In this document: positions 24,191 through 61,514 of the stretch, in pieces | How the letters are laid out: each line of letters begins with the position of its first letter | How positions within the stretch are numbered: position 1 is the first letter of the stretch | Source: Patescibacteria group bacterium | Lineage (GTDB): Bacteria; Patescibacteriota; Patescibacteriia; Patescibacteriales; UBA12465 | DNA: 64,000 nt | NCBI GenBank assembly: GCA_028687275.1 | Contig: JAQUAK010000001.1 | Span: 36,213-100,212, forward strand | Direction of reading: 5' to 3' | The notes under the pieces: generated by a model | Told to the model about the DNA's origin: nothing | What the model saw: only the letters and a program-made list of their open reading frames with translations | Database searches by the model: none | Position numbers and translations under genes: made by a program

Positions 24191-24222
24191 AAAAGCTATC
24201 TTTACAGATAGCTTTTATTTTT
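24191..24222. terminator. Bidirectional hairpin terminator between convergent rnhA and the por/pilin operon
   Basis: AAAAGCTATCT (24191-24201) / AGATAGCTTTT (24206-24216), 4-nt loop, with A/T runs on both sides. Confidence 0.75.
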
Positions 24223-24223
24223 A

Positions 24224-25552
24224 TTAAGGGCTGCATGACCACTTGGGTGTTTCTTGATATTGAAAGTGCCACCATTCGCCACAATATCTTTTCCACCCGG
24301 CTGCTTTCATAATTTCTTGTAGCTTGGTAACATCACTATCTTTATAGTCAGCGAAAGCCGCACTGCCCATTTTTTGACACGAAGCAGATCCTTTTATGCA
24401 AACATCAATTGCTTGGCCACTACGATGACCACCGCAACCACCAGGTCTGGCTACATATTTAGCTGCTATTGAGGCATCGTTATTATACTTAGTCATAGCT
24501 CTGTCCCATAGCGCTTGCTGGTGTTCAGCAGTTCTAAAAGCACTGGTGACATGTAATTCTACTCCCATTTTTCTAGCCTCTTCAACAGCCTTCACTAATC
24601 CTTCGACGCCAACCGTTGTTAGTATTGGCGTTTGAGCACTAGTGCTGACAATTCCTTCTATATTTTTTAAATCATTATTATTAGCACAATTGGAGGATGA
24701 ATTGTTAGTGCTATCGCTGCCGTTAATAATTGGTTGAATGTAGATGCCCTCGAGCATTTTAAGAGAAATTGATTTCATGGATATAAGATCAGGATTAATC
24801 TGGACTAGCAAGATATAAGAACCAAATAATATCATTAAACCAGTAATGCTGCCTAAGATTAAACTTTTGGCTTGGGTTATTTTAGAAACATCGCCGCCAG
24901 AAACTAGCCAGAGTAATCCGCCAGCCATCAGAACAACGGCGGCTAAAATCCCGCCGATACCTAAGCCGTAGTTGTAAACAAAGGTTATATATTGAGCAAT
25001 CCAAGGGATGGCACAGTCGCCGGTATTATCAGGGCCTGTACATTCAGCCGTGCTTAAGGTTAGCCCGTCAATTGGAATCTGTAATTGGGGGATGGTAAAT
25101 TTGGCTTTTTCAACGTGAGTATCAACACCCGGGCAGCAGCATGTATAATCAGTTGTCCTTCCTCCGTAAGATGTAGTAGAAGAAGGTTTTTTGGCGGGAT
25201 CACAATCATCGCCTCCTGTCTCGTCTGCTTGACAAGCCTGACTCCAACTACCAGCAGTGGCTTGCACTCCTCCGCCACCTGTGCCCGGTGTATAATATTT
25301 TGGCTTCCAACTACAACTGTAATTAATTTGAGGTTGACAACAACAGACTTTGTTATCAGAGAGTAATCCAGCTTCACAGTTTTGATAAGGGGCTTCAACT
25401 TTACCTCCATTAACCAAGCAGGTACTAACTAGTGGGTTGTCATTTTTTATTTCTACAGAGCAATTTAGCAGCGTTGTTGTTTTTGCTAGGGTGCTGTTAG
25501 GCAGAATTAAAAACAAGGCAATTAATAGTAGGGCAAAAATCAGTTTTTTCAT
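24224..25552 (-). CDS. Exported fusion protein: signal peptide, Cys-rich ectodomain, VirB2/TrbC-like pilin two-helix module, and M15 (VanY-like) zinc peptidoglycan peptidase
   Basis: Signal peptide 'MKKLIFALLLIALFLILPNSTLA'. 14 Cys in aa 31-180, including two CCC triplets. Pilin-type hairpin 'IGGILAAVVLMAGGLLWLVSGGDVSKITQAKSLILGSITGLMILFGSYILL' (aa ~185-258, nt 24779-25000). M15 blocks 'VTSAFRTAEHQQALW', H-x6-D 'HRSGQAID' (nt 24404-24427) and 'EWWHFQY'. The start overlaps the porB stop by 4 nt. Confidence 0.75.
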   Translation of the reverse strand: MKKLIFALLLIALFLILPNSTLAKTTTLLNCSVEIKNDNPLVSTCLVNGGKVEAPYQNCEAGLLSDNKVCCCQPQINYSCSWKPKYYTPGTGGGGVQATAGSWSQACQADETGGDDCDPAKKPSSTTSYGGRTTDYTCCCPGVDTHVEKAKFTIPQLQIPIDGLTLSTAECTGPDNTGDCAIPWIAQYITFVYNYGLGIGGILAAVVLMAGGLLWLVSGGDVSKITQAKSLILGSITGLMILFGSYILLVQINPDLISMKSISLKMLEGIYIQPIINGSDSTNNSSSNCANNNDLKNIEGIVSTSAQTPILTTVGVEGLVKAVEEARKMGVELHVTSAFRTAEHQQALWDRAMTKYNNDASIAAKYVARPGGCGGHRSGQAIDVCIKGSASCQKMGSAAFADYKDSDVTKLQEIMKAAGWKRYCGEWWHFQYQETPKWSCSP

Positions 25553-26427
25553 AGTTTAAAAAGTTTTAGATTTTTATCGGCTAAAGCTTGAATTTGTTTA
25601 ATTTCTGCTTCGGACAGATGTTTAAATCGACCCTGGATAGATAAATAGTCACTGACCGGCAGGGCTTTGAAGTTTTTGTTAATGCTAGAATTACTTAATT
25701 CACCATTTGTATATTCTAATAATGGGTAAAGAGCCGTTTGAACTGCTAAGCGAGCACCTTCTCCAGCTTGGTTTGTTTTAATTTTCCAGCCAGGAACACA
25801 GGGGCTAAGAATTTGAATGTATGAAGGTCCTGGTGTCGCTAAAGCTTTTTTAACTTTATTAGTAATATCATCAGGGAAGGCAGTTGTGCTTTGTGCAACA
25901 TAATTAAGACCATGGGCTAAAGCAATTTTAAGCATGTCTTTTTTCTGTTGATTGGAGCCAAAGCTTTTTTCACCAGCTGGGGTAGTAACAGTGTTAGCCC
26001 CCCAAGGAGTTGAGCCGGAGGCTTGGATGCCTGTATTAGAATAAGCTTCAGTATCATAACAAATATAAACAATTTCTTCATTCCTTTCCCACATGCCACT
26101 AATCAAACCAATTCCAATATCATAGGTAGCGCCATCTCCAGCCTGAATAACAACTTTAGTTTTTTTCTTTTTTTTCTTTAAGGCTGCTTTGATGCCACTA
26201 GCAACGGGGGCGGCGTTTTCAAATAAAGAATGAATCCAGGGGAGTTGCCAAGAACTTTGGGGATAGGCAGTTGTAGTTACCTCTAAACAACCGGTAGAGC
26301 TAATTAAGATGGTGTCATCAGTTAAAGCCCTCATGACAGATTGGGCGGCACTTAATTGACCGCAGCCAGCGCAAGCATTATGACCGGGACTAAGGAAGGA
26401 ATTAAATTTTTTTTTATTTGTCGACAT
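25549..26427 (-). CDS. porB: Pyruvate (2-oxoacid):ferredoxin oxidoreductase beta subunit (TPP-binding)
   Basis: N-terminal 'GHNACAGCG', TPP motif region 'QAGDGATYDIGIGLISG', length typical of PorB. Confidence 0.9.
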   Translation of the reverse strand: MSTNKKKFNSFLSPGHNACAGCGQLSAAQSVMRALTDDTILISSTGCLEVTTTAYPQSSWQLPWIHSLFENAAPVASGIKAALKKKKKKTKVVIQAGDGATYDIGIGLISGMWERNEEIVYICYDTEAYSNTGIQASGSTPWGANTVTTPAGEKSFGSNQQKKDMLKIALAHGLNYVAQSTTAFPDDITNKVKKALATPGPSYIQILSPCVPGWKIKTNQAGEGARLAVQTALYPLLEYTNGELSNSSINKNFKALPVSDYLSIQGRFKHLSEAEIKQIQALADKNLKLFKL

Positions 26428-26436
26428 ATCAATTTT

Positions 26437-27438
26437 TTAATTTCTTTCATCATAGCAGCAATAGAGGCCCGTTCCGCAACTTCTACCTCCTTGGTCATGA
26501 AAATTGTGGTCGCCATTACAATGAATACCGCCAAGATTAATATATCCTTCGGAAGTGCATTTTGCTTTTCTGTCTTCATTGCCACAAGGCTCTCCTTCTC
26601 CGCCTTTATTGTACCAGGCTATCTTATCGTAACAATAGCATACACCAAGTCCACTTTTCTCAAAACAGTCATCGCCGTCTTCTGTGTCTTCTTCTTGACA
26701 AACATCTGTGGTTGGACAGCTGCCGAAATTGCCAGAGGCATAGGCGCAACCGGTATTATAAAAATTTGCTGTTGGGCAATTATCAGACATAGTGGCGGCA
26801 CAACTTAGGACGGTGCCATTATTGGCTATTGAAACGCAGCACCCAGGTAGAGAACACTTCGTTCCTGCACTGCCGATATTGTAATAGCGATCACCATTTA
26901 GTCTATCGTAAGTTTTTTGCATAAATTTACCACCATTTACCTGACATTCTTTATCAGTGGTCATTGCTGCTTTGCTGGTATATTGGCAGCAACCTATATT
27001 AATTGGTTCAATGTTTGTAAGGGTTTTTATTCTAAAATTAATTAAGTCAGGATTCACTGTATTTAAAATAATCCAAGCTCCAAATAATAGGCCGATGCCA
27101 GAAATACTACCGATAATTAAACCTTTGGCTTGAGTAATTTTATCACTACTACCACCTGAGGCTAACCAAATTAAGCCCCCGGCCATTAAGACTACTGCTG
27201 CTAAAATTCCACCAATAGCCAATCCATAATCATAAAAAGCTTTAATTAGCTGACCGATATAAGTCGTACTTCTTGCGGTCATGGTAGTAGTAGCATTAAA
27301 ACCAGGAATGCCAATTTGAGGCTCAAAAACAATTGGATCACCAATAGCAGACTGGGCTGGCATTAGTCCTAAAAAAGAGAAGGCGATTAAACTAACTAGG
27401 GCAAATTTTATAAAATTCAGGGCTTTATTTTTCTTCAT
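26437..27438 (-). CDS. Exported protein: signal peptide, VirB2/TrbC-like pilin two-helix module, and C-terminal Cys-rich ectodomain (20 Cys)
   Basis: The track ORF (to 27519) overlaps porA. ATG27438 (MKKNKALNFIKFALVSLIAFSFLGLMPAQSA) gives a signal peptide and a 4-nt gap after the porA stop. Hairpin 'IGGILAAVVLMAGGLIWLASGGSSDKITQAKGLIIGSISGIGLLFGAWIIL' (nt 27031-27258) is about two-thirds identical by eye to the 24224-25552 protein. 20 Cys in aa 150-328. Confidence 0.7.
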   Translation of the reverse strand: MKKNKALNFIKFALVSLIAFSFLGLMPAQSAIGDPIVFEPQIGIPGFNATTTMTARSTTYIGQLIKAFYDYGLAIGGILAAVVLMAGGLIWLASGGSSDKITQAKGLIIGSISGIGLLFGAWIILNTVNPDLINFRIKTLTNIEPINIGCCQYTSKAAMTTDKECQVNGGKFMQKTYDRLNGDRYYNIGSAGTKCSLPGCCVSIANNGTVLSCAATMSDNCPTANFYNTGCAYASGNFGSCPTTDVCQEEDTEDGDDCFEKSGLGVCYCYDKIAWYNKGGEGEPCGNEDRKAKCTSEGYINLGGIHCNGDHNFHDQGGRSCGTGLYCCYDERN

Positions 27439-27442: not shown

Positions 27443-28597
27443 TTACCAGAATTTAGTTTGTGTCCGCTTAGCGGACTTAATAATATTTTTAATTGTTTCA
27501 ATATTAATATCACGACCACCTAGGCCAACAATATGATTGCTAGAGACTCCTTTAAAGCCAGATAGACTAGACATAACATCACTGTATAATGGTCCATTGG
27601 CGCCACTAGACATAGCTTTTTCAATAATGGCGACATTTTTACAGTTAGCAATAATCTTTTTAACACTCTTGGCAGGAAAAGGTCGGTAGGATCTGATTTT
27701 TAAAATTCCAGTTTTTTTATCTTTTTTTAAGCATTCCTTAATTGTGCCTACGATGGACCCCATAGCGATTAAAAGTGTTTCTGGATTTTTTGGTCCACAG
27801 TACTCAACTAGACCATCGTCCAGCAAGGCTTTGATTGGGGACTCACTTGGCAATACTTTTTTCCAGTCTTTATAGTTTTTTGGAAAAACCTGGAGAATAT
27901 TTTTTAAATCTTCATCAATACGTCTTTTTTCTAACCAGAAATGATCAGGGGTAAATAAAGCCCCTAGAGTCACTGGTCTTTCAGGATTTAAATATGTGCC
28001 TAAGGCTGGTTTATAGGCAGGGAGATATTTTTTTATATCTTTTTTGCTGGGGATAATAACACTTTCAAAAGAATGGGTAAGGATGAAGCCATCAATATTA
28101 ATAGCTGCTGGCAAATTAAATTCTTCCGCTAGCTTATAGGCAATGACGTGTAAGTCTACAGCTTCTTGATGATTTTCGGCAAATAACATTATCCAGCCAG
28201 CGTCACGCATAGCCATGGCATCACTATGATCATTCCAGATATTTATTGGGCCACCGACCGCTCGATTGGCAATAGTCATAACTAGAGGTAGGCGTAATCC
28301 AGAGGCATTGTATAAAACCTCCATCATTAGTAATAAACCTTGAGAGCTGGTAGTGCTATATACTCGACTGCCAGTAGCACTGGCGCCAACAACAATAGAG
28401 GCGGCTGCAAATTCGCTTTCGGCAAGCAGATATTCATAATTAGCTTTGCCTTGAGCTTTAAATTTTGCTAAGTCCTCGACGATATGAGTTTGGGGAGTGA
28501 TTGGATAGGCAGAAATTACATCTGGTTGGATGTTGGCCACTGTTAAAGACACCGCTCTTGAGCCTTCTAAGAATTGAGTTTTAAGATTATTTTTCAT
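27443..28597 (-). CDS. porA: Pyruvate (2-oxoacid):ferredoxin oxidoreductase alpha subunit
   Basis: 'EGSRAVSLTVANIQPDVISAYPITPQTHIVE' N-terminus and overall length are typical of PorA. Ends '...TKFW'. Confidence 0.9.
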   Translation of the reverse strand: MKNNLKTQFLEGSRAVSLTVANIQPDVISAYPITPQTHIVEDLAKFKAQGKANYEYLLAESEFAAASIVVGASATGSRVYSTTSSQGLLLMMEVLYNASGLRLPLVMTIANRAVGGPINIWNDHSDAMAMRDAGWIMLFAENHQEAVDLHVIAYKLAEEFNLPAAINIDGFILTHSFESVIIPSKKDIKKYLPAYKPALGTYLNPERPVTLGALFTPDHFWLEKRRIDEDLKNILQVFPKNYKDWKKVLPSESPIKALLDDGLVEYCGPKNPETLLIAMGSIVGTIKECLKKDKKTGILKIRSYRPFPAKSVKKIIANCKNVAIIEKAMSSGANGPLYSDVMSSLSGFKGVSSNHIVGLGGRDINIETIKNIIKSAKRTQTKFW

Positions 28598-28601: not shown

Positions 28602-28880
28602 TTACTCTTTTTCCATTAATATCGCCTTGACTGGGCATTCGCTCGCACAGAGTCCGCAGCCCTTGCAATAATCATAATCAACTTCGGCTTTTAATTTACC
28701 TTCTTTATCAAGTTTCATTAGCATACAGGCGTCGGGACACATTTTAACGCAGCGTGAACAACCAATACAAAGATTTGGATCAATAATTGGTTTTTCCGTG
28801 CGCCAATCTCCAGTTTTATTATTTAAAGCTGATCCGGGTTGAGTTACTGGATTTTTAATTTTATTATTTTTTAGAGACAT
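28602..28880 (-). CDS. porD: Pyruvate:ferredoxin oxidoreductase delta subunit (2x[4Fe-4S] ferredoxin-like)
   Basis: Two cluster motifs, 'CIGCSRCVKMCP' and 'CKGCGLCASECP'. 92 aa. Confidence 0.9.
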   Translation of the reverse strand: MSLKNNKIKNPVTQPGSALNNKTGDWRTEKPIIDPNLCIGCSRCVKMCPDACMLMKLDKEGKLKAEVDYDYCKGCGLCASECPVKAILMEKE

Positions 28881-29430
28881 AGTTATAGGCAGCCGTGATG
28901 GCGGATTGATTTTTTTTGATTAAAGATTCTCCTTTATCAGCAAATTTTTCGGCAACAGTTTGCAGTAAGGTTTTTAGTTTAATAATTTTATTATGTTTAA
29001 TAAAGGCTCCGAGAATAACAGTGTTAACTATATTCTTGCCCAATAAATTTAAGGCTATATCTGTGGCGGGAGTGCTGTAGATATTGTTTGACTTTATTTT
29101 GTTTTTTAAAAGTTTGCTAATTTCCTCTGCTTCTAGGGGGCTATTTACAATCAGTTGTGTTGTTCTTTTGAGCCCAAGTAAAACTTCTTTCTCATTAAGA
29201 AGACTAGCGTCTTGCACAATTAAAATATCAGGTACTTGTACCTGTTCTCTAGTAATAATAGCTTCGTTATTAATGCGAACAAAGGATTGGATGGGAGCGC
29301 CACTTCTTTCTACGCCGAAGGCAGGAAAAGCTTGAGCAAAATACCCTTCATTAAAAGCAGCTAGAGCTAAAAGCTCAGCGGCTGTTACCACTCCTTGCCC
29401 GCCGCGACCATGAATACGAACTTGTATCAT
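28864..29430 (-). CDS. porG: Pyruvate:ferredoxin oxidoreductase gamma subunit
   Basis: 'IRIHGRGGQGVVTAAELLALAA' N-terminus is typical of the gamma subunit. Overlaps the porD start by 17 nt. Confidence 0.9.
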   Translation of the reverse strand: MIQVRIHGRGGQGVVTAAELLALAAFNEGYFAQAFPAFGVERSGAPIQSFVRINNEAIITREQVQVPDILIVQDASLLNEKEVLLGLKRTTQLIVNSPLEAEEISKLLKNKIKSNNIYSTPATDIALNLLGKNIVNTVILGAFIKHNKIIKLKTLLQTVAEKFADKGESLIKKNQSAITAAYNYVSKK

Positions 29431-29444: not shown

Positions 29445-30197
29445 TTATTGCGCTAACAGGCCGTCAAGGATGTTGGTGAAATATTCTTCTGGGTAATGGC
29501 CAGTAATTTTGTAGCGATTAATAAACCAAGTGGGAGTACCAGATAATCCTAGCAGTTCAGCGTCAGAAAAATCATCATTAAGACGGTATAAATAAGTTTT
29601 TTCATCCAGACAAGTGGAGAAATCAGTGGTGTTCAATTTAAGCTCACCGGATAAGTTTTTTAATTTATCTGTTAGGGCGGTGCCGGCTAGAGGTATTAGT
29701 TCATCTTGCCTAGCAAAAAGTAAATCATTCATTTCCCAAAATTTATTTTGCACGCCAGCACAATTACCGGCTAAGGCTAATTCAATTGAGTTGGTGTGTA
29801 GAGGGTAGTCACGAAAGGTAATGCGAATACTATCACCATATTTATTAGCTAAATTACGCACAACCGGAGCCGATTCTTTACAATAGGGGCAAGCATAGTC
29901 AGAAAAAATGACAATTTTTATCTTGGCATTAATTGGCCCTAGGCTATAGTTTTCTCCTCGGCCATCAATCGCTTGTGTAATTTTCTGTATTTCCGCGTCT
30001 TGATTAAGCTCTGTTTGATTGTTTTGAATATCTTTAACTTGACTAATAACATAATTAGTCGATGCGATTATGACCAATAAAATAATTAATCCTAAAATGA
30101 TGGCAATTATCCCCCACCATTTTTTATACCAAGGGCGGAGCTTATTTTTATGCCTGCCTTTCATTTCTAAATATTCAATGCGTTCATTTAAACTCAT
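29445..30197 (-). CDS. Membrane-anchored DsbA-like thiol:disulfide oxidoreductase
   Basis: N-terminal TM 'WWGIIAIILGLIILLVIIAS'. Thioredoxin-fold active site 'CPYC' in 'FSDYACPYCKE'. DsbA-like C-terminal 'GTPTWFIN'. Ends 14 nt upstream of porG. Confidence 0.8.
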   Translation of the reverse strand: MSLNERIEYLEMKGRHKNKLRPWYKKWWGIIAIILGLIILLVIIASTNYVISQVKDIQNNQTELNQDAEIQKITQAIDGRGENYSLGPINAKIKIVIFSDYACPYCKESAPVVRNLANKYGDSIRITFRDYPLHTNSIELALAGNCAGVQNKFWEMNDLLFARQDELIPLAGTALTDKLKNLSGELKLNTTDFSTCLDEKTYLYRLNDDFSDAELLGLSGTPTWFINRYKITGHYPEEYFTNILDGLLAQ

Positions 30198-30257: not shown

Positions 30258-30266
30258 ATTATATCA
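30258..30266 (-). promoter_or_regulatory. Candidate extended -10 element (TGATATAAT) for the dsbA-por-pilin operon
   Basis: The minus-strand sequence reads TGATATAATATAAT, about 60 nt upstream of ATG30197. No good -35 element. Confidence 0.3.
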
Positions 30267-30316
30267 TATGCATCGTTTTGTGGCTATTTGCTTGTCATTA
30301 GCGTTAAAATTTATTT

Positions 30317-33525: not shown

Positions 33526-34380
33526 ATGGAAAATATTGCTGCTAAAACTAAAGAACTTTGTCGTATTTATGATATCAAGCCTGCTCGCAGCAAGGGCCAG
33601 AATTTTCTAATTAATGACGGTATTTATAAAGCGATTGTAAATGCTGCTAAAATAGATGAGAAAGACACGGTACTTGAAGTGGGTCCAGGGCTTGGTTTTT
33701 TAACAGCTGAACTTTCTAAAAGGGCGGCGCGAGTGATCGCAGTTGAGCTAGATGATAAGTTGGCTGGTATTTTGACGATTGCGATTGATTCTCAGGGAGT
33801 AGAAAATGTAGAGATAATTAATCAAGATATTTTAAACTTTAATCCAGCGGAACATTTTTCGACTGATGAACCTTATCGTATTGTTGCCAACTTACCTTAT
33901 AACATAACCTCCATTTTTTTACGTACTTTTTTAACTTCAGCGCGTCCACCAAAATCATTAGTTGTGATGTTGCAAAAAGAGGTGGCAGAAAGAATCATTA
34001 CGACCGCGCCTGATATGACCATGTTGTCTTTATCAGTACAGTACTATGGCGCTCCAAGTATTGTTAAGATTGTTCCAGCTTCGGATTTTTGGCCAGCGCC
34101 AGCCGTAGATAGTGCGATTTTGCATTTTTCTTATAATCGCCCCATGCCCACTCCAGAATCATTAGCGATTGATAAAAATTTTTTTCGGATTGCTCGTATT
34201 GGCTTCAGTGCTAAACGTAAAATGATGAAAAATAATTTAATGGGAGGGCTAAAATTAAGTGCTGAGAAGGTTGAAAAAGCTTTGTTGGAGGCGGATATTG
34301 ATTTAAAGACTCGGGCTGAAGATTTAAGCTTAGAAAAATGGCAGCGTTTAGTTGCGAGCATCACTCCTTTTGTGTTATAA
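33526..34380 (+). CDS. rsmA: 16S rRNA (adenine1518/1519-N6)-dimethyltransferase RsmA/KsgA
   Basis: 'KGQNFL', SAM motif 'VLEVGPGLGFLT', 'ANLPYNITS'. Confidence 0.93.
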   Translation: MENIAAKTKELCRIYDIKPARSKGQNFLINDGIYKAIVNAAKIDEKDTVLEVGPGLGFLTAELSKRAARVIAVELDDKLAGILTIAIDSQGVENVEIINQDILNFNPAEHFSTDEPYRIVANLPYNITSIFLRTFLTSARPPKSLVVMLQKEVAERIITTAPDMTMLSLSVQYYGAPSIVKIVPASDFWPAPAVDSAILHFSYNRPMPTPESLAIDKNFFRIARIGFSAKRKMMKNNLMGGLKLSAEKVEKALLEADIDLKTRAEDLSLEKWQRLVASITPFVL

Positions 34381-34429
34381 TTTTAGTAATCTAGTTTTTC
34401 TCGTTGTTAATAAAACGCTAAGATTACTT

Positions 34430-35074
34430 ATGCCTAAAAATTTAAATGACCCATTAAATAATGAGAATCGTCCCTCATTTTTAAAAAGTTTACCCAAACC
34501 ACAACGGATTGCTTTTTTAAGCTTGTCTGTTATCAGTTTGGGTATTATTGTTTTATGGGTTTGGCAATTTAATAATCGCCTTTCTAGCCCTTTTTATATA
34601 CCTACAAATCAGCAGTCTAACATTACTACTGATACCAGTGAATTTGAAATTGCTTTACTAAATTTCGACACTGATAGTGATGGCTTAACTGACACGGAAG
34701 AAAGAAGCCTGTATGGCACATCGCCTTATTTAGAAGATACCGATAGTGACGGAATTTCTGATCGTGAGGAAATTGAAAATGGTACTGATCCTAATTGTGC
34801 TACTGGTCAAGATTGTAGCGGCGCCATTGCAGTTACTCCTACTGTTAGTACAACTACGATAGTGACTTTGCCGAGTAACGACACCGCTATGAGTGATAGT
34901 GGCAGTGAGGATAATTTACAGCTCATGATGTCTGGACAGGCTGATGTAGCTCAATTGAGAGCTTTGTTACTTGATAGCGGGGCTGATGCTACCATGTTAC
35001 AGCAATTAAGTGATGAGGAATTACTTAAAGCCTATCAGGAAATGTTGGCTGGTCAAGAGACTAGCGCTCAATAG
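34430..35074 (+). CDS. Membrane-anchored protein with thrombospondin type-3-like Ca-binding repeats
   Basis: The track ORF starts at 34352, inside rsmA. ATG34430 (MPKNLND) is more plausible. TM 'IAFLSLSVISLGIIVLWVW'. Two 'DTDSDG(L/I)(T/S)D.EE' repeats at nt ~34661-34800. Confidence 0.65.
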   Translation: MPKNLNDPLNNENRPSFLKSLPKPQRIAFLSLSVISLGIIVLWVWQFNNRLSSPFYIPTNQQSNITTDTSEFEIALLNFDTDSDGLTDTEERSLYGTSPYLEDTDSDGISDREEIENGTDPNCATGQDCSGAIAVTPTVSTTTIVTLPSNDTAMSDSGSEDNLQLMMSGQADVAQLRALLLDSGADATMLQQLSDEELLKAYQEMLAGQETSAQ

Positions 35075-35115
35075 TTTATTTATTATTTTTTTGAAGATTT
35101 TTAGCGGGAAATATT

Positions 35116-43439: not shown

Positions 43440-43874
43440 ATGAAAAATTTACTGATTGTTTCGTTGATTGCGTTATTTTTTATCTCATGTGAAAAAGATA
43501 ACACTTTGGGGCCAGCCCCAAACCCAGATCCCGATCCCGAAACCGTTTATAAAACGGAGATTACAATAAACTTTGTTATTCCACCAGGTGTGATGTTGCT
43601 TGGTGGAGACAATATGTGGGTTCTACGCTCCGATGAGGAGCAGATTACTAACCGCATCCAAACGGAGTTTCCTACCATGGTAATTGTCTTAACAGGCGAT
43701 TCTGTTAAGAACAATATGCATAAAAAATGTTACATTTTCGGGAGGTTCGCTAAGAGAATTGAAAGCCTTAACTACAGCTATGATTTCCGCAAGAGCTTCA
43801 CAATGGAGGAAAAAGTGACTATAACCCTCACGGTTTCCGCTGATCGCCTAGCTGAGGAACATTTCGATCCCTGA
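43440..43874 (+). CDS. Small lipoprotein (hypothetical)
   Basis: Lipobox 'LIALFFISC' followed by a 'PAPNPDPDPE' linker. Its codon usage is richer in C/G-ending codons than its neighbours. Confidence 0.55.
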   Translation: MKNLLIVSLIALFFISCEKDNTLGPAPNPDPDPETVYKTEITINFVIPPGVMLLGGDNMWVLRSDEEQITNRIQTEFPTMVIVLTGDSVKNNMHKKCYIFGRFAKRIESLNYSYDFRKSFTMEEKVTITLTVSADRLAEEHFDP

Positions 43875-45847: not shown

Positions 45848-46420
45848 ATGCCTCTTGATGATCAATTGATTCGCAATCAAACAGATACGACCAATGAACC
45901 CGATAGTAGCGCTGATAAGGCTGGGGCTCTGAATCGAGCTAAGCGCGGTGAGCTTGAAGGTGGAGAGGCAACTGATTTCCGTTCTAGTCGTATGAGTGCC
46001 ATCAGAGCTAAGGCGGGTAAGTTGAAGGCCAAGTTATCAATTGGACAGAAAAGTTTTAGTGCTGCTACTAGCAAAATACTTCAATCAGCCTGGCGTAATA
46101 TAGTTATAAGTTTCGGTTTTTCATTTCTCTATGTCTATGCTCACTTATTTTTGCAACAAATTTTTGGCAAGAATCTCTTTGCTCCACTGGGCTCAGAATG
46201 GCGTGATCGTCCTGGCTTAACAATCGAGGAGAGAGAAAGAATGGGTGTGCCTTTTAAATTAATGGAATCGTTTGGAGTTGGTTGTTTAACTATTGTTCTA
46301 CTGATTGCTATAATTTTTGCCTTTTCCATACCAGCCTTAATTATTGAGGTGGTTACAAATCCTTTACGTACTTTTGTTTCATTTTTTAAAGAATTTTTTA
46401 GCTGGTTAACGGGCAGCTAG
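45848..46420 (+). CDS. Hypothetical membrane protein, first gene of T4SS-like block 1
   Basis: Polar, basic, probably disordered N-terminal ~75 aa, then 2-3 hydrophobic helices. Lies 15 nt upstream of the VirB6-like gene. Confidence 0.5.
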   Translation: MPLDDQLIRNQTDTTNEPDSSADKAGALNRAKRGELEGGEATDFRSSRMSAIRAKAGKLKAKLSIGQKSFSAATSKILQSAWRNIVISFGFSFLYVYAHLFLQQIFGKNLFAPLGSEWRDRPGLTIEERERMGVPFKLMESFGVGCLTIVLLIAIIFAFSIPALIIEVVTNPLRTFVSFFKEFFSWLTGS

Positions 46421-46435
46421 ATACTAGCTTAATTT

Positions 46436-49069: not shown

Positions 49070-49072
49070 CTT

Positions 49073-55941: not shown

Positions 55942-55942
55942 T

Positions 55943-56377
55943 ATGCAACAGTTTACCGTTCCACAATTTATTGATGTTGAAAGCAAGATCATCGGACCAA
56001 TTACGACGAGACAGTTTTTGATTTTTCTGGGTGCGGCTATTATTATTGGTATTAGTTATAAAATTTTTGATTTTGCTTTGTTTCTAACCGTAGCTATTGT
56101 TATCTTTGCCGTTGCCGGAACTTTTGCTTTTTTAAAAATTAATGGCAGACCCTTTCATTTCTTCGTTTTAAATTTAATTCAAACTTGGCGTCGTCCTAAT
56201 TTACGTGTCTGGAATCATATTTTGGGTTTTGTGGATAGTCCCGATGCGGTTATTGTAATTAAAGAAGAAAAACAAATCCCCACTAAAGAAGTATTTAAAT
56301 CTTCACATTTAGCGGATTTGGCTTTGGTGGTTGACACTAAAGGCCGTTATCGTGGTGGTGATGATGAACAAGTTTAA
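55943..56377 (+). CDS. PrgI-family (VirB3-like) small T4SS membrane protein
   Basis: N-terminal 'FTVPQFIDVESKIIGPITTRQFLIFLGAAIIIGISY' followed by a second TM matches the PrgI-family pattern as I recall it. Positioned just upstream of the VirB4-like gene. Confidence 0.6.
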   Translation: MQQFTVPQFIDVESKIIGPITTRQFLIFLGAAIIIGISYKIFDFALFLTVAIVIFAVAGTFAFLKINGRPFHFFVLNLIQTWRRPNLRVWNHILGFVDSPDAVIVIKEEKQIPTKEVFKSSHLADLALVVDTKGRYRGGDDEQV

Positions 56378-56381
56378 TTTT

Positions 56382-57071
56382 ATGTCTGAAAAAAATAGTC
56401 TTGTGCGCAACAAAGTAAACGTTTCCACTCAGCAATATTTAGACATTGCTGAGATTAAAGATGACGTTGTGATTATGAAAGATGGTACTTTGCGTGCAGT
56501 CTTATTAGTTTCTAGTATCAATTTTGCGTTAAAGAGTGAAGATGAACAGAATGCCGTTATTAATTCCTATGTGATGTTTTTAAACAATCTGAGCTTTATG
56601 TTAGAGATTGTAATTCAGTCACGTGAATTAGATATTGATAATTACATTACTTACTTACAAGAGAAGGAAAAACAACAGATAAATAAGTTATTAAAAGTAC
56701 AAACTTCAGAATATATTGAATATATTAAAGAACTGACCTCTTTGGGTAAGATTATGAATAAGCGTTTTTTCGTGGTTGTGCCTTATAATCCCTTAAGTGA
56801 TAGTCATAAAGGTTTTTTTTCTCTTTTAGGCGAGGCTTTAAAGCCAGCAACTTCCATTAAGTTAAAGGATAAGAGTTTTAATCGTTATAAGGAAATGCTT
56901 AATCGTCGACTTGATAGTGTCATTGGTGGAATGGAATCAATGGGAGTAAGTACTGCACGTTTAGACACACAAAGTTTAATTGAGTTATATTATAAGACTT
57001 ATAATCCCGAGACGGCCAAAAATCAGGATTTAGCTGATTTGAAAAAATTAAGAGTAGACACTAATAACTAA
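56382..57071 (+). CDS. Hypothetical T4SS-associated protein (pattern reminiscent of a VirB4/TraC N-terminal domain)
   Basis: The track start at 56331 overlaps the previous gene. ATG56382 (MSEKNS) lies 4 nt after its stop. 'YLDIAEIKDDVVIMKDGTLRAVLLVSSINFALKSEDEQ' parallels the sort of N-terminal segment seen in VirB4-like proteins. Weak call. Confidence 0.4.
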   Translation: MSEKNSLVRNKVNVSTQQYLDIAEIKDDVVIMKDGTLRAVLLVSSINFALKSEDEQNAVINSYVMFLNNLSFMLEIVIQSRELDIDNYITYLQEKEKQQINKLLKVQTSEYIEYIKELTSLGKIMNKRFFVVVPYNPLSDSHKGFFSLLGEALKPATSIKLKDKSFNRYKEMLNRRLDSVIGGMESMGVSTARLDTQSLIELYYKTYNPETAKNQDLADLKKLRVDTNN

Positions 57072-57079
57072 TCCTTCCT

Positions 57080-58969
57080 ATGGTTAATTTTAATAGAGAC
57101 AATGGTAAACAAAAAATAACTCTCAATACTCCCATTAGTTTATCTTCTCGGTCAAAGGAAAGGGCTATCGAAGCCGATCCAGAGATGACTAGAGAAATAA
57201 TCGAGGAAGAGAAGGCTTTTCGACGTGGTGTTTTGACGGTGCGAGATATTATTTCTCCTGCTAGTTTACAGGTTCATCCAAACTATCTAAGTTTGGGCTC
57301 TAAATTTGTGCGCACCATGTTCATCATTGCTTATCCGCGTTATATTAGTGTCGGCTGGTTTGCGCCAATCATCAATCTAAATCTCACTTTTGATGTTTCC
57401 ATGTTTTTCTATCCAGTTAAAAGTGCGGTTATTTTAAAACAATTAAAAAATAAGGTTGGCGCCTTAGAGGCACAGATTATTTCTGATGCTGAAAAGGGCG
57501 CTGCTCGTGATCCTTTACGTGAAACAGCCTTACGCGATATTGAATATTTACGTGACGCCTTAACTCAGGGAACAGAAAAGTTTTTTCAATTTTCACTTTA
57601 TGTTACTTTATACGCTGATAATTTAGAAGAGTTAGACCGCATGTCTGACCAGGTAGAAGATATCTTTGGCTCACGCTTAGTTTACTCTCGTCGGGTTTAT
57701 TTTCAGGCGGAACAAGGCTTTAACTCTACTTTACCCCTGGGTAATGATGAGCTCTATATTACTTTTAACATGAATTCCTCACCGATTGCCTCTTCTTTCC
57801 CCTTTATTTCTAGTGAGTTAACCAGCGATCGTGGTATTTTATATGGTATTAATCGCCATAATAATAGTTTAATTTTGTTTGATCGTTTTTCTTTACAGAA
57901 TGCTAACTCAGTTGTATTCGCTACTTCTGGTGCAGGTAAATCCTATGCAATTAAATTAGAAATTTTACGTTCTTTAATGTTGGGCGCAGAGGTGATTGTA
58001 ATTGATCCGGAGTATGAGTATAAGCATTTAGCAGAGGCTGTTGGTGGCACCTATGTGAACATCTCTTTAGCTTCAGAAAATAAAATTAATCCTTTTGATT
58101 TGCCTCGGGCTATCGGCGGAGAAGCTAAGGCTAAGGATATTATTCGTAGTGCGGTTATTACTTTGAAAGGTTTGGTGCGTTTAATGTTAGGTAAATTAGA
58201 TTATGATGAAGATTCAATTGTTGATCGAGCTTTATTAGAAACTTATGCTAAGAAAGATATAACTCCTGATTCTGATTTATCTACAATTGAACCACCAGTG
58301 ATGACTGACTTTGAGCAAGTTCTTGATGGTATGGAGGGCGGCTCTGACCTGGCTTTGCGTTTGAAAAAATATACGGAAGGAACTTTTGCTGGTTTGCTAA
58401 ATAGCACTACTAATGTCGAGATGAATAATCAATTGGTATGTTTTTCGGTACGTGACTTAGAAGATGAGCTTCGTCCTTTAGCTATTTACACTATTGTTAA
58501 TTATATTTGGAATACCGTACGTAGTGAAATGAGAAAACGTATTTTGGTAATTGATGAAGCTTGGTGGATGATGCAAAATGAAGATAGTGCTAAGTTTATT
58601 TTTGCTCTAGTGAAACGTTGCCGTAAATATTATTTAGGAGTAACGACGATTACGCAGGATGTAAATGATTTTTTAACCTCTCCTTATGGTAAGGCAATTG
58701 TAACTAACTCCTCTTTGCAGATATTATTAAAGCAATCGCCGGCGGCTATTGATTTAGTGCAAAAAACTTTCCTTCTCACCGAAGGCGAGAAATATTTGTT
58801 GTTGGAATGTGGCGTCGGCGAAGGCATTTTCTTTGCTGGTAATAAGCATGTGGCCATGAAAATTGTTGCTTCTTATGCGGAAGATCAATTAATTACTTCT
58901 GACCCACGACAGCTATTAGAGATTGAAGAGGCAAAAAAAGAATTTGATGAAAGTTTAAATCAAGAATAA
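57080..58969 (+). CDS. VirB4/TraC/PrgJ-like T4SS ATPase
   Basis: Walker A 'FATSGAGKSY' (nt ~57917-57946), Walker B 'ILVIDEAWWM' (nt ~58541-58570), 'ITQDVNDF' sensor-like block. Size and N-domain are typical of monoderm VirB4 homologs. Confidence 0.85.
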   Translation: MVNFNRDNGKQKITLNTPISLSSRSKERAIEADPEMTREIIEEEKAFRRGVLTVRDIISPASLQVHPNYLSLGSKFVRTMFIIAYPRYISVGWFAPIINLNLTFDVSMFFYPVKSAVILKQLKNKVGALEAQIISDAEKGAARDPLRETALRDIEYLRDALTQGTEKFFQFSLYVTLYADNLEELDRMSDQVEDIFGSRLVYSRRVYFQAEQGFNSTLPLGNDELYITFNMNSSPIASSFPFISSELTSDRGILYGINRHNNSLILFDRFSLQNANSVVFATSGAGKSYAIKLEILRSLMLGAEVIVIDPEYEYKHLAEAVGGTYVNISLASENKINPFDLPRAIGGEAKAKDIIRSAVITLKGLVRLMLGKLDYDEDSIVDRALLETYAKKDITPDSDLSTIEPPVMTDFEQVLDGMEGGSDLALRLKKYTEGTFAGLLNSTTNVEMNNQLVCFSVRDLEDELRPLAIYTIVNYIWNTVRSEMRKRILVIDEAWWMMQNEDSAKFIFALVKRCRKYYLGVTTITQDVNDFLTSPYGKAIVTNSSLQILLKQSPAAIDLVQKTFLLTEGEKYLLLECGVGEGIFFAGNKHVAMKIVASYAEDQLITSDPRQLLEIEEAKKEFDESLNQE

Positions 58970-58986
58970 ACTTAGTTTAAAAATAT

Positions 58987-59601
58987 ATGAATAACAACAA
59001 AAAATTAGGGATTTTTATTATCGTTGTTGGCTTACTTCTCATCGCCGCTATTATTTACTTTATCTTTATGCCTAATCGTACAGCTACGATTGAGACTCCA
59101 CCAGTTGATAATAACCCTTTAGTACAATTGCCAGCTGTCATTGAAACTAGTAGCACTACTCCAGGCGATCGTCCGCGTTATAAGGAGTATGATCTTAGCC
59201 AAGAAGCTGAGCACAAGACTAATGGTGATGATCTAGCTAAATTAGCATCTGCTTTTGCTGAGCGCCTAGGTTCTTATTCTAATCAGTCTAATTATAGTAA
59301 TTTTGAAGATTTAAATATTTTTATGACCGCTTCCATGCGTGATTGGGCTAAAAATTATGTAGAAAATACCCGTCGAGACAATCCCTACAATGGAACTTAT
59401 TACGGCGTGACCACTAAAGCAGTTAGTACAGAAGTTGTTGACTTTAATGATGCTCAAAGTAGCGCTGAGGTTGTCGTAAGCACACAAAGAAGGGAAACAA
59501 CTCTTGATGGTGGTGAAAATAATTATCAACAGAATTTGCGCCTTACTTTCATAAAAGAAGCTGACCAATGGTTAGTCGATGGCGCTTATTGGCTTAAATA
59601 A
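58987..59601 (+). CDS. Bitopic membrane protein, possible VirB8-like (NTF2-like C-terminal domain)
   Basis: N-terminal TM 'LGIFIIVVGLLLIAAIIYFIF', a linker, then an alpha+beta-looking domain ending 'LRLTFIKEADQWLVDGAYWLK'. Its position after VirB4 matches PrgL/TcpC-type proteins. The fold assignment is inference. Confidence 0.35.
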   Translation: MNNNKKLGIFIIVVGLLLIAAIIYFIFMPNRTATIETPPVDNNPLVQLPAVIETSSTTPGDRPRYKEYDLSQEAEHKTNGDDLAKLASAFAERLGSYSNQSNYSNFEDLNIFMTASMRDWAKNYVENTRRDNPYNGTYYGVTTKAVSTEVVDFNDAQSSAEVVVSTQRRETTLDGGENNYQQNLRLTFIKEADQWLVDGAYWLK

Positions 59602-59603
59602 AT

Positions 59604-60950: not shown

Positions 60951-60972
60951 TTTTTATCCCCAGAAAACAGTA

Positions 60973-61001
60973 TTGACAAGATATTAAAAAAGTGCTATAA
61001 T
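60973..61001 (+). promoter_or_regulatory. Consensus sigma70-type promoter (TTGACA-17 bp-TATAAT, with TGc extended -10)
   Basis: TTGACA at 60973-60978 and TATAAT at 60996-61001 with an exact 17-bp spacer, TG at 60993-60994. The best promoter match I found in the window. Confidence 0.6.
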
Positions 61002-61030
61002 TCAGTCATCGTACCTTGAAAAAGAAGGTT

Positions 61031-61082
61031 TTAAAGGTTTATACAGATTGATCAGTTTTGGTCAGGCTATATAAACCTTTAA
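61031..61082 (+). promoter_or_regulatory. Long imperfect hairpin in the 5' leader of the 61093 gene
   Basis: TTAAAGGTTTATA (61031-61043) pairs perfectly with TATAAACCTTTAA (61070-61082). Inner stem TGATC (61049-53) / GGTCA (61060-64). No T-run follows, and no obvious Shine-Dalgarno sequence precedes ATG61093. Confidence 0.5.
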
Positions 61083-61092
61083 CACTTATACA

Positions 61093-61491: not shown

Positions 61492-61514
61492 TCTCATTAT
61501 TCTTTAACGTCTTT

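What the first reader, a model, noticed from the sequence alone, without database searches (positions are those of the whole stretch)
26437..27438. Paralogous pilin-like module with permuted domain order; conserved at protein level but diverged at synonymous sites
Seen: aa ~61-136 of this protein (nt 27031-27258) and aa ~185-258 of the 24224-25552 protein (nt 24779-25000) align without gaps. They are about two-thirds identical by eye, for example 'IGGILAAVVLMAGGL(I/L)WL(A/V)SGG' and 'KITQAK'. The underlying codons differ at many third positions. The Cys-rich parts also share a 'C-x-VNGGK' motif ('ECQVNGGKF' and 'TCLVNGGKV'). However, the Cys-rich domain is C-terminal to the hairpin here and N-terminal in the paralog. 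Inference: this is an old duplication kept under purifying selection, with domain shuffling that keeps the Cys-rich domain extracytoplasmic in both proteins. The C-terminal 180 aa (20 Cys, including CC pairs and 'CYCY') have no family I can name.
Basis: seen in the sequence. Interest (0 to 1): 0.6.

Follow-up and report, generated by a model that had tools for sequence, protein, structure and literature searches.

The report
Pilin-like surface protein pair, Patescibacteria
Two neighbouring genes of an uncultured Patescibacteria genome share an old, well-conserved copy of a secretion-system "pilin" membrane hairpin that carries different cysteine-rich or cell-wall-cutting domains on the cell surface; this is a variant of a known pilin gene array, not a permuted domain.

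Summary
Protein B (26437-27438, minus strand, 333 aa) and protein A (24224-25552, minus strand, 442 aa) share an ungapped two-helix module. Synonymous sites are saturated (pS 0.83, dN 0.34).

The module is Pfam PF18895, the VirB2-like "T4SS_pilin" family. Paralogous arrays of this family are already described in Patescibacteria.

The "permuted domain" reading is not supported. B's C-terminal 20-Cys domain and A's N-terminal Cys-rich modules are not detectably homologous (pairwise z=1.1; hhalign E 0.74 and 0.15). Cys-rich modules do sit on either side of the hairpin elsewhere in the superfamily.

New findings:
- B's Cys-rich domain is a small family (135 representatives among 1.84 billion proteins). 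Its AlphaFold2 model is confident and has no match in PDB or BFVD.
- Proteins at A's position carry interchangeable peptidoglycan hydrolases.
- The order DsbA-porG-porD-porA-B-porB-A is conserved in most of 76 Falkowbacteria-like species.
- A VirB4 type IV secretion cluster lies 30 kb away in the window.

Most likely these are DsbA-folded surface proteins derived from pilins. I rate it a new variant of a known kind, of moderate interest.

The parts
29445..30197 (-). Membrane-anchored DsbA-like thiol:disulfide oxidoreductase (250 aa, CPYC motif). First gene of the putative operon.
   Evidence: PF13462 Thioredoxin_4 76.1 bits and PF01323 DSBA 47.3 bits. 'ACPYC' is visible in the translation. It lies directly upstream of the hairpin genes or POR genes in about 70 related loci, including those without POR.
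30258..30286 (-). Best sigma-70-like promoter match on the minus strand, upstream of the DsbA gene.
   Evidence: TAGCCA-17-TATAAT with an extended TG, 10 of 12 matches. This is a consensus match only.
28864..29430 (-). porG, the pyruvate:ferredoxin oxidoreductase gamma subunit.
   Evidence: PF01558 POR, 125.6 bits.
28602..28880 (-). porD, the delta subunit (two 4Fe-4S ferredoxin motifs).
   Evidence: PF00037, PF14697 and related families.
27443..28597 (-). porA, the alpha subunit.
   Evidence: PF01855 226.5 bits and PF17147 78.3 bits. Its stop codon lies 4 nt before the ATG of B.
26437..27438 (-). Protein B (333 aa): signal peptide, VirB2-like hairpin, then a 20-Cys ectodomain. This is the finding.
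   Evidence: PF18895 29.3 bits, above the 26.6 cut-off. NCBI names the identical protein 'pilin' (P0001). Full-length homologues have 32-56% identity.
27349..27438 (-). B aa 1-30: predicted Sec signal peptide (MKKNKALNFIKFALVSLIAFSFLGLMPAQSA).
   Evidence: Hydrophobic segment at aa 5-32 ending in AQSA. The AlphaFold2 model has a helix at aa 3-23. No signal-peptide predictor was available, so this is an inference.
27055..27264 (-). B aa 59-128: helix-loop-helix transmembrane hairpin, the module shared with A.
   Evidence: AlphaFold2 helices at aa 59-93 and 98-128. Nearly all invariant positions among 148 homologues lie here. BLASTP to A gives E=6e-31.
26440..27003 (-). B aa 146-333: extracytoplasmic, beta-rich 20-Cys domain with no named family and no known fold.
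   Evidence: About 13 invariant and 4 nearly invariant Cys. Domain model pLDDT 85, pTM 0.72. No Pfam hit at E<=0.1. No PDB sequence hit at E<=10. No Foldseek hit in PDB or BFVD. 135 representatives at E<=0.001 among 1.84 billion proteins.
25549..26427 (-). porB, the beta (TPP-binding) subunit, separated from porA by gene B.
   Evidence: PF02775 82.4 bits. There is a 9-nt gap after B and a 4-nt overlap with A.
24224..25552 (-). Protein A (442 aa): signal peptide, two 'C...C...C...CCC' modules, VirB2-like hairpin, then a VanY/LAS peptidase.
   Evidence: PF02557 VanY 40.8 bits (cut-off 25). PF18895 19 bits, below the cut-off. NCBI names it 'D-alanyl-D-alanine carboxypeptidase family protein' (P0060).
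25004..25483 (-). A aa 24-183: N-terminal Cys-rich region (14 Cys). Its conserved module is C-x-W...C...C..KP...CCC.
   Evidence: Alignment of 51 homologous N-terminal regions. Not homologous to B's C-domain by hhalign or HMM.
24782..25003 (-). A aa 184-257: the hairpin paralogous to B aa 60-133.
24251..24607 (-). A aa 316-434: VanY/LAS zinc D,D-peptidase domain with its catalytic motifs present.
   Evidence: PF02557 and PF01427. Motifs SAFR337, H376-x2-G-x-A-x-D383 and E426-x2-H429.
24191..24216 (.). Stem-loop (11 pairs) between the converging A and RNase H genes, a likely terminator.
   Evidence: This is a consensus match only.
55943..59601 (+). Context: core of a Patescibacteria-type type IV secretion system. 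It comprises a PrgI/VirB3-like gene, a TrsD-like gene, the VirB4 ATPase and an NTF2-like 204-aa protein, followed by radA and recG.
   Evidence: PF12666 PrgI 32.6 bits. NF045971 VirB4-like CD1110 family 360 bits, above the 325 cut-off, and a TrsD match at E=8e-7.

Best explanation
B and A are two anciently duplicated members of the VirB2-like PF18895 'T4SS pilin' family. In both, the small pilin hairpin has become the membrane-embedded core of a much larger surface protein.

Proposed steps:
1. Each protein is exported by a cleavable signal peptide.
2. The two conserved helices insert as a hairpin, with the short basic loop (SGGxxxKITQAK) in the cytoplasm. Everything N- and C-terminal of the hairpin therefore lies outside the cell.
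3. The Cys-rich ectodomains are oxidatively folded by the membrane-anchored DsbA encoded at the head of the same seven-gene operon.
4. B displays an orphan, beta-rich domain of about 190 aa with ten likely disulfides. This is probably a binding or structural module.
5. A displays Cys-rich stalk modules plus an active-looking VanY/LAS D,D-peptidase. It probably trims or cleaves peptidoglycan, either the cell's own wall around the secretion system (a VirB1-like role) or the wall of a host cell.

Shown: homology, purifying selection, domain content, synteny, and a type IV secretion system in the same window.

Inferred: topology, disulfide formation, co-transcription, enzymatic activity, and any link to the secretion system.

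The interleaving with the pyruvate:ferredoxin oxidoreductase genes is best read as an old insertion fixed in a tightly packed operon, not as a functional partnership.
For: Homology and selection:
- Hairpin homology E=6e-31, z=33.
- dS saturated, dN 0.34.
- Two positional orthologue lineages across 76 species.

Family assignment:
- B passes the PF18895 cut-off.
- 65 of 73 A-type proteins hit PF18895 at E<=0.001.
- The hairpin profile retrieves canonical small PF18895 proteins of 96-207 aa, down to E=7.5e-36.
- The hairpin profile aligns in register with Agrobacterium VirB2, weakly (P=0.003). The VirB2 sequence was recalled from memory, so this is only a lead.
- The best pilin-like fold hit is the Aeropyrum conjugation pilus 8dfu, TM 0.67 on the target length but E=3.

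Topology: signal peptide plus two helices.

Disulfides:
- Cys counts outside the hairpin are predominantly even and the Cys are conserved.
- DsbA lies directly upstream in about 70 loci, including the six that lack POR.

Hydrolase role:
- VanY motifs are intact in A.
- At A's position, relatives carry VanY/M15, NlpC/P60, 3D, SLT, Amidase_2, Amidase_5 or C39-like domains.

Secretion system in the genome: VirB4, PrgI and TrsD lie at 55.9-59.0 kb.

Operon: gaps of 4 nt, 9 nt and -4 nt, one good promoter match upstream of DsbA and one stem-loop after A.

Literature:
[quoted passage not shown] - A pilin array is essential in Ca. Southlakia epibionticum (PMC10633639).
Against: - A and B are two to three times longer than typical PF18895 proteins.
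- They are not next to the secretion genes. The gap is 30 kb here, and no secretion gene lies within 7 kb of the array in any of the 76 loci.
- A alone is below the PF18895 cut-off.
- No PF18895 member has a solved structure, so 'pilin' is itself an annotation-level inference.
- Nothing here shows disulfides, surface exposure, peptidase activity or transcription.
- The function of B's ectodomain is entirely unknown.
- Hairpin conservation (57-61% within lineages) is higher than a plain membrane anchor would need. This hints at an interaction, such as polymerisation or docking, that this explanation leaves open.
Confidence: 0.55

Rival explanations
1. Decorated pilus. B and A are true polymerising subunits, major or minor, of a type IV secretion pilus. 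The hairpins pack into a VirB2-type filament, and the Cys-rich domain and the peptidoglycan hydrolase are displayed along or at the tip of the fibre. The result would be an enzymatically 'armed' pilus that contacts and breaches the host wall.
For: - The hairpin is far more conserved than the ectodomains, and nearly all invariant residues lie in it.
- A VirB4 secretion system is present, and no PF18895 gene was found among the secretion genes of this window that were scanned against Pfam (the larger ORFs).
- In VirB2/TraA filaments both termini face outward (established knowledge), so fused domains would be external.
- Patescibacteria secretion systems are thought able to make conjugative-type pili, and pilin arrays are essential (PMC12857230, PMC10633639).
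Against: - A 16-20 kDa domain on one terminus (B) or both termini (A) of every subunit is sterically demanding for a tightly packed VirB2-type helix.
- The genes are 30 kb from virB4 and sit in a housekeeping or metabolic operon.
Confidence: 0.2
2. The same Cys-rich domain was moved from one side of the hairpin to the other after duplication, and 'C-x-VNGGK' is its surviving signature.
For:
- Both sub-modules have six Cys.
- Module mobility across the hairpin is real elsewhere in the family.
Against: - Pairwise z=1.1.
- Profile-profile E=0.74 and E=0.15, with probabilities below 1%.
- HMMs of B's modules miss A.
- The VNGGK string is not conserved in either family. A-type relatives read CIDTFK, CSSRGQ and CALKEK at that position.
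- A's conserved module has a different Cys pattern (C-x-W...C...C..KP...CCC).
Confidence: 0.08
3. Functional partnership with pyruvate:ferredoxin oxidoreductase. The Cys-rich domain binds metal or Fe-S clusters, and the hairpin proteins tether or couple POR to the membrane, for example for electron disposal.
For: - B lies between porA and porB, and A directly follows porB, in most of 76 species, with tight or overlapping spacing.
- The domain has 20 conserved Cys.
Against: - Six related genomes lack POR but keep DsbA plus 2-4 hairpin genes at the same chromosomal site. One further locus (L069), which also lacks porG, porD and porA, keeps only a porB remnant, so the hairpin genes do not depend on POR.
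- The Cys-rich domain is on the opposite side of the membrane from POR.
- The DsbA neighbour points to disulfides.
- A-type partners are cell-wall hydrolases.
Confidence: 0.04
4. Composition artefact. The similarity only reflects two hydrophobic transmembrane helices.
For: The region is hydrophobic and rich in Gly and Ala.
Against: - z=33 against residue shuffles.
- E=6e-31 with compositional adjustment.
- The polar loop and flanks (YxYG, SGG..KITQAK, NPDLI) are conserved across 148 proteins.
Confidence: 0.01

Closest known systems
VirB2-like pilin arrays of Patescibacteria (Pfam PF18895 T4SS_pilin). Described in Quinonero-Coronel et al. 2025 (PMC12102498). Includes the essential array of Ca. 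Southlakia epibionticum (Wang et al. 2023, PMC10633639).
   Same: - The same Pfam family.
- A signal peptide followed by a two-helix hairpin.
[quoted passage not shown]
- A genome with a VirB4/PrgI/TrsD secretion system next to radA and recG, as reported for class ABY1.
   Different: - A and B are 333 and 442 aa, against roughly 100-200 aa for typical members.
- They carry large disulfide-rich ectodomains, and A also carries a peptidoglycan hydrolase.
- They lie 30 kb from virB4 inside a DsbA-POR operon.
- They are single-copy positional orthologues conserved across about 70 species, not a variable array.
- Hairpin identity (60-64%) exceeds the 54% maximum reported within arrays.
VirB1-type peptidoglycan hydrolases of type IV secretion systems in monoderm bacteria (TraG of pIP501, PrgK, TcpG). 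These are multidomain SLT/CHAP enzymes, often membrane-anchored.
   Same: The A-type proteins are membrane-anchored, extracytoplasmic cell-wall hydrolases in a genome with a secretion system. Across species their catalytic domain swaps among SLT, 3D, NlpC/P60, M15 and amidase types. This is similar to the mixed hydrolase domains of VirB1 analogues.
   Different: - The anchor is a VirB2-like hairpin, not a single transmembrane helix.
- The window's enzyme is a VanY/LAS D,D-peptidase, not a lytic transglycosylase or CHAP enzyme.
- The genes are not in the secretion cluster.
- No functional link has been shown.
F-type conjugation thiol-disulfide proteins TrbB and TraF (DsbA/DsbC-like proteins encoded with pilus assembly genes).
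   Same: A thioredoxin-fold oxidoreductase is encoded with pilin-family genes. The window's DsbA gives weak hits to PF13728 TraF (24.1 bits, cut-off 23) and TIGR02738 TrbB (25.6 bits).
   Different: - It is far below the TrbB cut-off of 132 bits.
- It fits general DsbA/Thioredoxin_4 much better.
- Its presumed substrates here are the pilin-fused Cys-rich ectodomains themselves.

Membership tests
PF18895 T4SS_pilin (VirB2-like pilins of Patescibacteria and monoderm bacteria) | Score at or above the Pfam gathering cut-off of 26.6 bits. | tested here: met
   B scores 29.3 bits at aa 61-127. A alone scores 19.0 bits, below the cut-off. A is nevertheless homologous to B at E=6e-31, and 65 of 73 A-type orthologues hit PF18895 at E<=0.001.
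PF18895 T4SS_pilin (VirB2-like pilins of Patescibacteria and monoderm bacteria) | N-terminal signal peptide followed by two long hydrophobic helices joined by a short basic loop. | tested here: met
   AlphaFold2 helices at aa 59-93 and 98-128, with the loop SGGSSDKITQAK. The hydrophobicity scan finds a signal segment and two transmembrane segments in both proteins.
PF18895 T4SS_pilin (VirB2-like pilins of Patescibacteria and monoderm bacteria) | Small protein consisting essentially of the hairpin (about 100-200 aa). | tested here: not met
   B is 333 aa and A is 442 aa. Hits retrieved with the hairpin profile are 96-207 aa.
PF18895 T4SS_pilin (VirB2-like pilins of Patescibacteria and monoderm bacteria) | Encoded in or near a VirB4-containing secretion gene cluster. 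| tested here: inconclusive
   VirB4, PrgI and TrsD are in the window at 55.9-59.0 kb, about 30 kb from B. No secretion gene lies within 7 kb of the array in any of the 76 related loci.
PF18895 T4SS_pilin (VirB2-like pilins of Patescibacteria and monoderm bacteria) | Polymerises into an extracellular pilus. | not testable with these tools
   No solved structure of any family member exists. No multimer prediction was available.
Canonical VirB2/TrbC/TraA conjugative pilins (PF04956 and relatives) | Detectable sequence or fold homology to an experimentally characterised pilin. | tested here: inconclusive
   No PF04956 hit at E<=0.1. hhalign of the hairpin profile against A. tumefaciens VirB2 (sequence recalled from memory) gives P=0.003, probability 9.8%, in the correct register. 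Against F TraA there is nothing. Foldseek to the A. pernix conjugation pilus 8dfu gives TM 0.67 but E=3.
Patescibacteria 'VirB2 array' as defined in PMC12102498 | Two to eleven pilin genes in tandem or separated by one non-pilin gene, with divergent paralogues. | tested here: met
   B and A are separated only by porB. Relatives have 2-4 such genes at the locus.
VanY / LAS zinc D,D-peptidases (PF02557, PF01427), for protein A | HMM score above the cut-off, plus the zinc and catalytic motifs H-x(6)-D and E-x-x-H and the SxxR substrate motif. | tested here: met
   PF02557 40.8 bits (cut-off 25) and PF01427 30.5 bits (cut-off 27). Motifs SAFR337, H376RSGQAID383 and E426WWH429. Activity was not tested.
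DsbA-like oxidoreductase, for the first gene of the operon | Thioredoxin fold with a CxxC motif and extracytoplasmic anchoring. | tested here: met
   PF13462 76.1 bits and PF01323 47.3 bits. 'CPYC' and an N-terminal hydrophobic segment (WWGIIAIILGLIILLVIIAS) are visible in the translation.
Any named family or fold for B's C-terminal Cys-rich domain | A match to Pfam, NCBIfam, PDB sequences or PDB/BFVD folds. | tested here: not met

The most novel reading that the evidence does not exclude
In Falkowbacteria-like Patescibacteria, a conserved DsbA-led operon may make two VirB2-derived subunits that build an 'armed' secretion pilus or surface array. One subunit displays an orphan ten-disulfide fold as a host-recognition module. 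The other displays a swappable peptidoglycan hydrolase that supplies the VirB1 function these genomes otherwise lack and breaches the host wall. Co-transcription with pyruvate:ferredoxin oxidoreductase would tie expression of this host-attack apparatus to central fermentative metabolism.
Probability: 0.15. Interest if true: 0.75.

Novelty: new variant of a known kind. Interest (0 to 1): 0.45.

Why it matters
Patescibacteria make up a large share of bacterial diversity and live on other cells. Their type IV secretion system and its pilin arrays are essential in the one system tested genetically, yet what the pilins do is unknown.

This locus shows that the pilin hairpin has been reused as a platform for large, disulfide-stabilised surface domains and for interchangeable cell-wall hydrolases, serviced by a dedicated DsbA.

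Three testable consequences follow:
- It gives a concrete candidate for the 'missing' VirB1 function in these genomes.
- It gives a compact orphan fold, confidently modelled, for structural work.
- It provides a conserved synteny marker (DsbA-porGDA-B-porB-A) for this clade.

The proteins are already labelled 'pilin' and 'D-Ala-D-Ala carboxypeptidase family' in NCBI.

Tried and rejected
- **Paralogues in the window.** tblastn with both proteins and both hairpins found none. The weak hit at 61111-61179 (a 132-aa membrane ORF) has E=0.2-1 and no Pfam or NCBIfam match. The rest of the 593-kb source contig could not be read.
- **Internal repeats in B's Cys-rich domain.** hhalign of sub-modules m1, m2 and m3 against each other gave E=0.29-0.52, so there are none.
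- **Disulfide map.** Model coordinates are not exposed. Covariation of Cys presence and absence in the 43-sequence alignment was dominated by alignment noise and was discarded.
- **By-eye resemblance.** 'GCCEKKD...' modules N-terminal in some A-type proteins (L015_2 and others) looked like B's first sub-module. The m1 HMM did not detect them, so this was dropped.
- **Single-sequence hairpin search.** It returned nothing because too few index words were shared. The profile search worked.
- **POR-coupling hypothesis.** Considered and rated unlikely, because POR-less relatives keep the DsbA-hairpin array.
- **DsbB/VKOR partner for DsbA.** None was recognised among the window ORFs scanned. ORF 43440-43874 is a lipoprotein-like protein, not VKOR.
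Full report
**What is at the coordinates**

The window is AT-rich, about 37% GC. It comes from an uncultured Patescibacteria genome. The product of 26437-27438 (minus strand) is identical to an NCBI protein named 'MAG: pilin [Patescibacteria group bacterium]', carried on a 593-kb contig (P0001). Its closest relatives are mostly MAGs labelled Candidatus Falkowbacteria or Patescibacteria group.

I call the 333-aa product of 26437-27438 'B' and the 442-aa product of 24224-25552 'A'. The ORF listing entry for B starts at a GTG at 27519 inside porA. The ATG at 27438, 4 nt after the porA stop, is the start used in public annotation, and it gives a typical signal peptide.

**Checking the observation**

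- The ungapped register is B61-136 with A185-260, with 49/76 identical (64%). It extends to 53/89 identical.
- BLASTP with compositional adjustment gives E=6e-31.
- The Smith-Waterman score is 261, against 35.6 +/- 6.7 for 2000 shuffles (z=33). The stated refutation, composition-driven similarity, therefore fails.
- At the DNA level only 16 of 53 conserved residues keep the same codon, and third positions are 36% identical. Nei-Gojobori gives pS=0.83, beyond saturation, and dN=0.34. dN/dS cannot be given a number, but it is clearly far below 1.

**What the shared module is**

B aa 61-127 matches Pfam PF18895 (T4SS_pilin) above the gathering cut-off. A matches the same model below it. AlphaFold2 models B aa 59-93 and 98-128 as two long helices joined by the loop SGGSSDKITQAK. 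Both proteins start with a signal-peptide-like segment.

A profile of the hairpin retrieves canonical small PF18895 proteins of 96-207 aa, down to E=7.5e-36.

Links to experimentally characterised pilins are weak.
- hhalign against Agrobacterium VirB2, with the VirB2 sequence recalled from memory, gives P=0.003 in the correct register.
- There is nothing against F TraA.
- The best pilin-like fold match is the Aeropyrum pernix conjugation pilus, with TM 0.67 but E=3.
- No family member has a solved structure.

The literature already describes VirB2-like pilin arrays in Patescibacteria. [quoted passage not shown] One such array is essential in Ca. Southlakia epibionticum (PMC10633639; reviewed in PMC12857230). 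The core of the finding is therefore a known kind of thing.

**Testing the 'permuted domain' claim**

Outside the hairpin, BLASTP finds nothing significant; the best extra segment has E=0.96. Further tests agree.
- B145-333 against A24-183 scores 49, against 40.8 +/- 7.3 for shuffles. 15% of shuffles score at least as high.
- I extracted 148 hairpin proteins from 76 related loci and built family alignments from them.
- hhalign of 43 B-type C-domains against 51 A-type N-domains gives E=0.74, probability 0.06%.
- The two sub-modules that carry 'C-x-VNGGK' give E=0.15, probability 0.4%. The motif is not conserved among A's orthologues.
- HMMs of B's three sub-modules do not hit A.
- A's conserved N-terminal module has its own signature, C-x-W...C...C..KP...CCC.
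- A also has a C-terminal VanY/LAS peptidase domain.

The two proteins therefore have different architectures around a shared hairpin. They are not a permutation of one architecture.

Modules do cross the hairpin in the wider family, however. B's last sub-module (...CYxxxCWxGxGxxGEPCGN...GGRxCGxGLxCC) occurs in repeats N-terminal to a hairpin in P0120, P0176, P0184 and P0190. L073_1 has an m1-like module on both sides of its hairpin.

**B's Cys-rich domain**

- Thirty-four full-length homologues with 33-56% identity share 13 invariant and 4 nearly invariant Cys.
- A profile search of 1.84 billion representative proteins finds only 135 members at E<=0.001. In almost all of them the domain directly follows a hairpin.
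- The domain-only AlphaFold2 model is confident (pLDDT 85, pTM 0.72) and mostly beta.
- It has no match in Pfam or NCBIfam, in PDB sequences, or by Foldseek in PDB or BFVD.

**Genomic context**

The minus-strand genes from 30197 to 24224 are, in order:
- a membrane-anchored DsbA (CPYC motif);
- porG, porD and porA;
- B;
- porB;
- A.

The spacers between porA, B, porB and A are 4 nt, 9 nt and -4 nt. There is one good promoter match upstream of DsbA and a stem-loop after A.

This order, a pilin-family gene between the alpha and beta subunits of pyruvate:ferredoxin oxidoreductase and another after beta, recurs in about 65 of 76 species-level genomes. In those genomes B is only 29-57% identical.

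Six relatives lack POR but keep DsbA followed by 2-4 hairpin genes at the same site, next to ExoIII and LeuRS. One further locus (L069), which also lacks porG, porD and porA, keeps only a porB fragment. The stable unit is therefore DsbA plus hairpin genes. POR is a passenger that was lost in some lineages.

Hairpins group by position. All 68 genes upstream of porB cluster with the upstream group, and 55 of 57 downstream genes cluster with the downstream group. The duplication is therefore older than this clade.

Cysteine counts follow the same split. B-type proteins have about 0 Cys before the hairpin and typically 20 after it. A-type proteins have 6-16 before and 3-20 after, predominantly even numbers.

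**What sits at A's position in relatives**

Of 73 A-type proteins, 65 hit PF18895. Their C-terminal domains rotate among peptidoglycan hydrolases:

| Domain | Members |
|---|---|
| VanY | 11 |
| Peptidase_M15 | 8 |
| Peptidase_M15_4 | 2 |
| NlpC/P60 | 8 |
| 3D | 6 |
| SLT and SLT_3 | 3 |
| Amidase_2 | 1 |
| Amidase_5 | 1 |
| C39-like | 2 |

The window's A has the LAS motifs intact: SAFR337, H376-x2-G-x-A-x-D383 and E426-x2-H429.

PMC12102498 notes that most Patescibacteria with VirB2 homologues lack a recognisable VirB1. A hydrolase fused to a pilin hairpin is an obvious candidate for that role. I found no paper describing such fusions.

**A secretion system is present in the window**

- A PrgI/VirB3-like gene lies at 55943-56377.
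- A TrsD-like gene lies at 56331-57071.
- VirB4 lies at 57080-58969 (NF045971, 360 bits, cut-off 325).
- An NTF2-like 204-aa protein lies at 58987-59601.
- radA and recG follow. This is the context reported for class ABY1 (PMC12102498).

The pilin-like pair is about 30 kb away from this cluster, not inside it.

**Most likely mechanism**

Both proteins are exported through Sec. The hairpin inserts with its basic loop in the cytoplasm, so every flanking domain is outside the cell.

The co-encoded DsbA oxidises the cysteines. B then exposes an orphan disulfide-rich domain, probably for binding or structure. A exposes Cys-rich modules plus a D,D-peptidase that acts on peptidoglycan.

Whether the hairpins stay in the membrane or polymerise into a decorated pilus is open. 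The unusually strong conservation of the hairpin argues for some specific interaction. The size of the appended domains and the distance from virB4 argue against a simple major-pilin role.

I put 0.55 on the surface-anchor reading, 0.2 on the decorated pilus, and little on a functional link to POR.

**Verdict**

The novelty is that of a new variant of a known kind. The known kind is the Patescibacteria VirB2-like pilin array. The variant features are the large disulfide-rich and hydrolase-bearing ectodomains, the dedicated DsbA, and the deeply conserved interleaving with POR genes. Interest is moderate.

Noticed in passing
window 54328-63867: A Patescibacteria-type type IV secretion cluster. 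It contains a 537-aa protein with no family, a PrgI/VirB3-like gene (55943-56377), a TrsD-like gene (56331-57071), VirB4 of the CD1110 family (57080-58969) and an NTF2-like 204-aa protein that may be a VirB8 analogue (58987-59601). radA (59604-60950) and recG (61957-63867, minus strand) follow. No PF18895 hit was found among the cluster ORFs scanned against Pfam.
   Followed up: partly
window 45848-50041: Three consecutive genes without any Pfam or NCBIfam match. They encode a 190-aa protein with C-terminal transmembrane segments, an 877-aa protein with a polytopic N-terminal half and a long hydrophilic tail (VirB6-like in layout), and a 322-aa soluble protein. They may be further secretion components.
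   Followed up: partly
window 27301-27330 (B aa 37-46) and 25069-25098 (A aa 152-161): A conserved motif, F-x-(I/P)-P-Q-(I/V/L)-x-I-P-(G/I/x), lies 20-40 residues upstream of the hairpin in both the A and B lineages. The Pro equivalent to B P40 is conserved in at least 90% of 148 proteins. The AlphaFold2 model is unconfident there (pLDDT about 50). It could be a processing or docking site. In A-type proteins it separates the N-terminal Cys-rich modules from the hairpin.
   Followed up: no
L018, L023, L035, L036 (two genes between porA and porB); L016, L022, L053, L078 (two genes after porB): Local tandem duplications of the B-type or A-type gene occur in some species, so the array still expands and contracts within the conserved frame.
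   Followed up: partly
L029, L056, L072, L073, L079, L082; L069:8135-8305: Six relatives lack all four POR genes but keep DsbA followed by 2-4 hairpin genes at the same chromosomal site. A seventh locus (L069) also lacks porG, porD and porA and keeps only a short porB remnant. This suggests secondary loss of pyruvate:ferredoxin oxidoreductase in some lineages.
   Followed up: partly
window 34352-43323: A TSP3-repeat protein (240 aa) is followed by a giant 2735-aa protein whose only hit is a CBM_4_9 carbohydrate-binding domain. This pair lies in the same position, next to RsmA, LeuRS and ExoIII, in distant relatives. It is probably a conserved giant surface protein.
   Followed up: no
L017-L019, L021-L023, L028, L030, L031, L034, L039, L049 and others: Many public MAG contigs carrying this unmistakably Patescibacteria-type locus are titled 'uncultured Gammaproteobacteria bacterium'. 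A few are titled Bacteroidota, Lutibacter or Thermoplasmatales archaeon. These look like mislabelled records or contaminated bins.
   Followed up: no
window 43440-43874: A 144-aa ORF with a lipoprotein-like N-terminus (MKNLLIVSLIALFFISC) and a proline-rich linker. It has no family match.
   Followed up: no
P0120 (655 aa), P0184 (546 aa), P0176 (380 aa): More distant hairpin proteins carry long N-terminal trains of different Cys-rich modules. P0176 and P0184 have two hairpins in tandem. P0120 ends in a LAS-peptidase-like segment (SCHYGG...YAVDF...HIHISV). This shows a wider, modular 'Cys-rich train, hairpin, hydrolase' architecture.
   Followed up: partly
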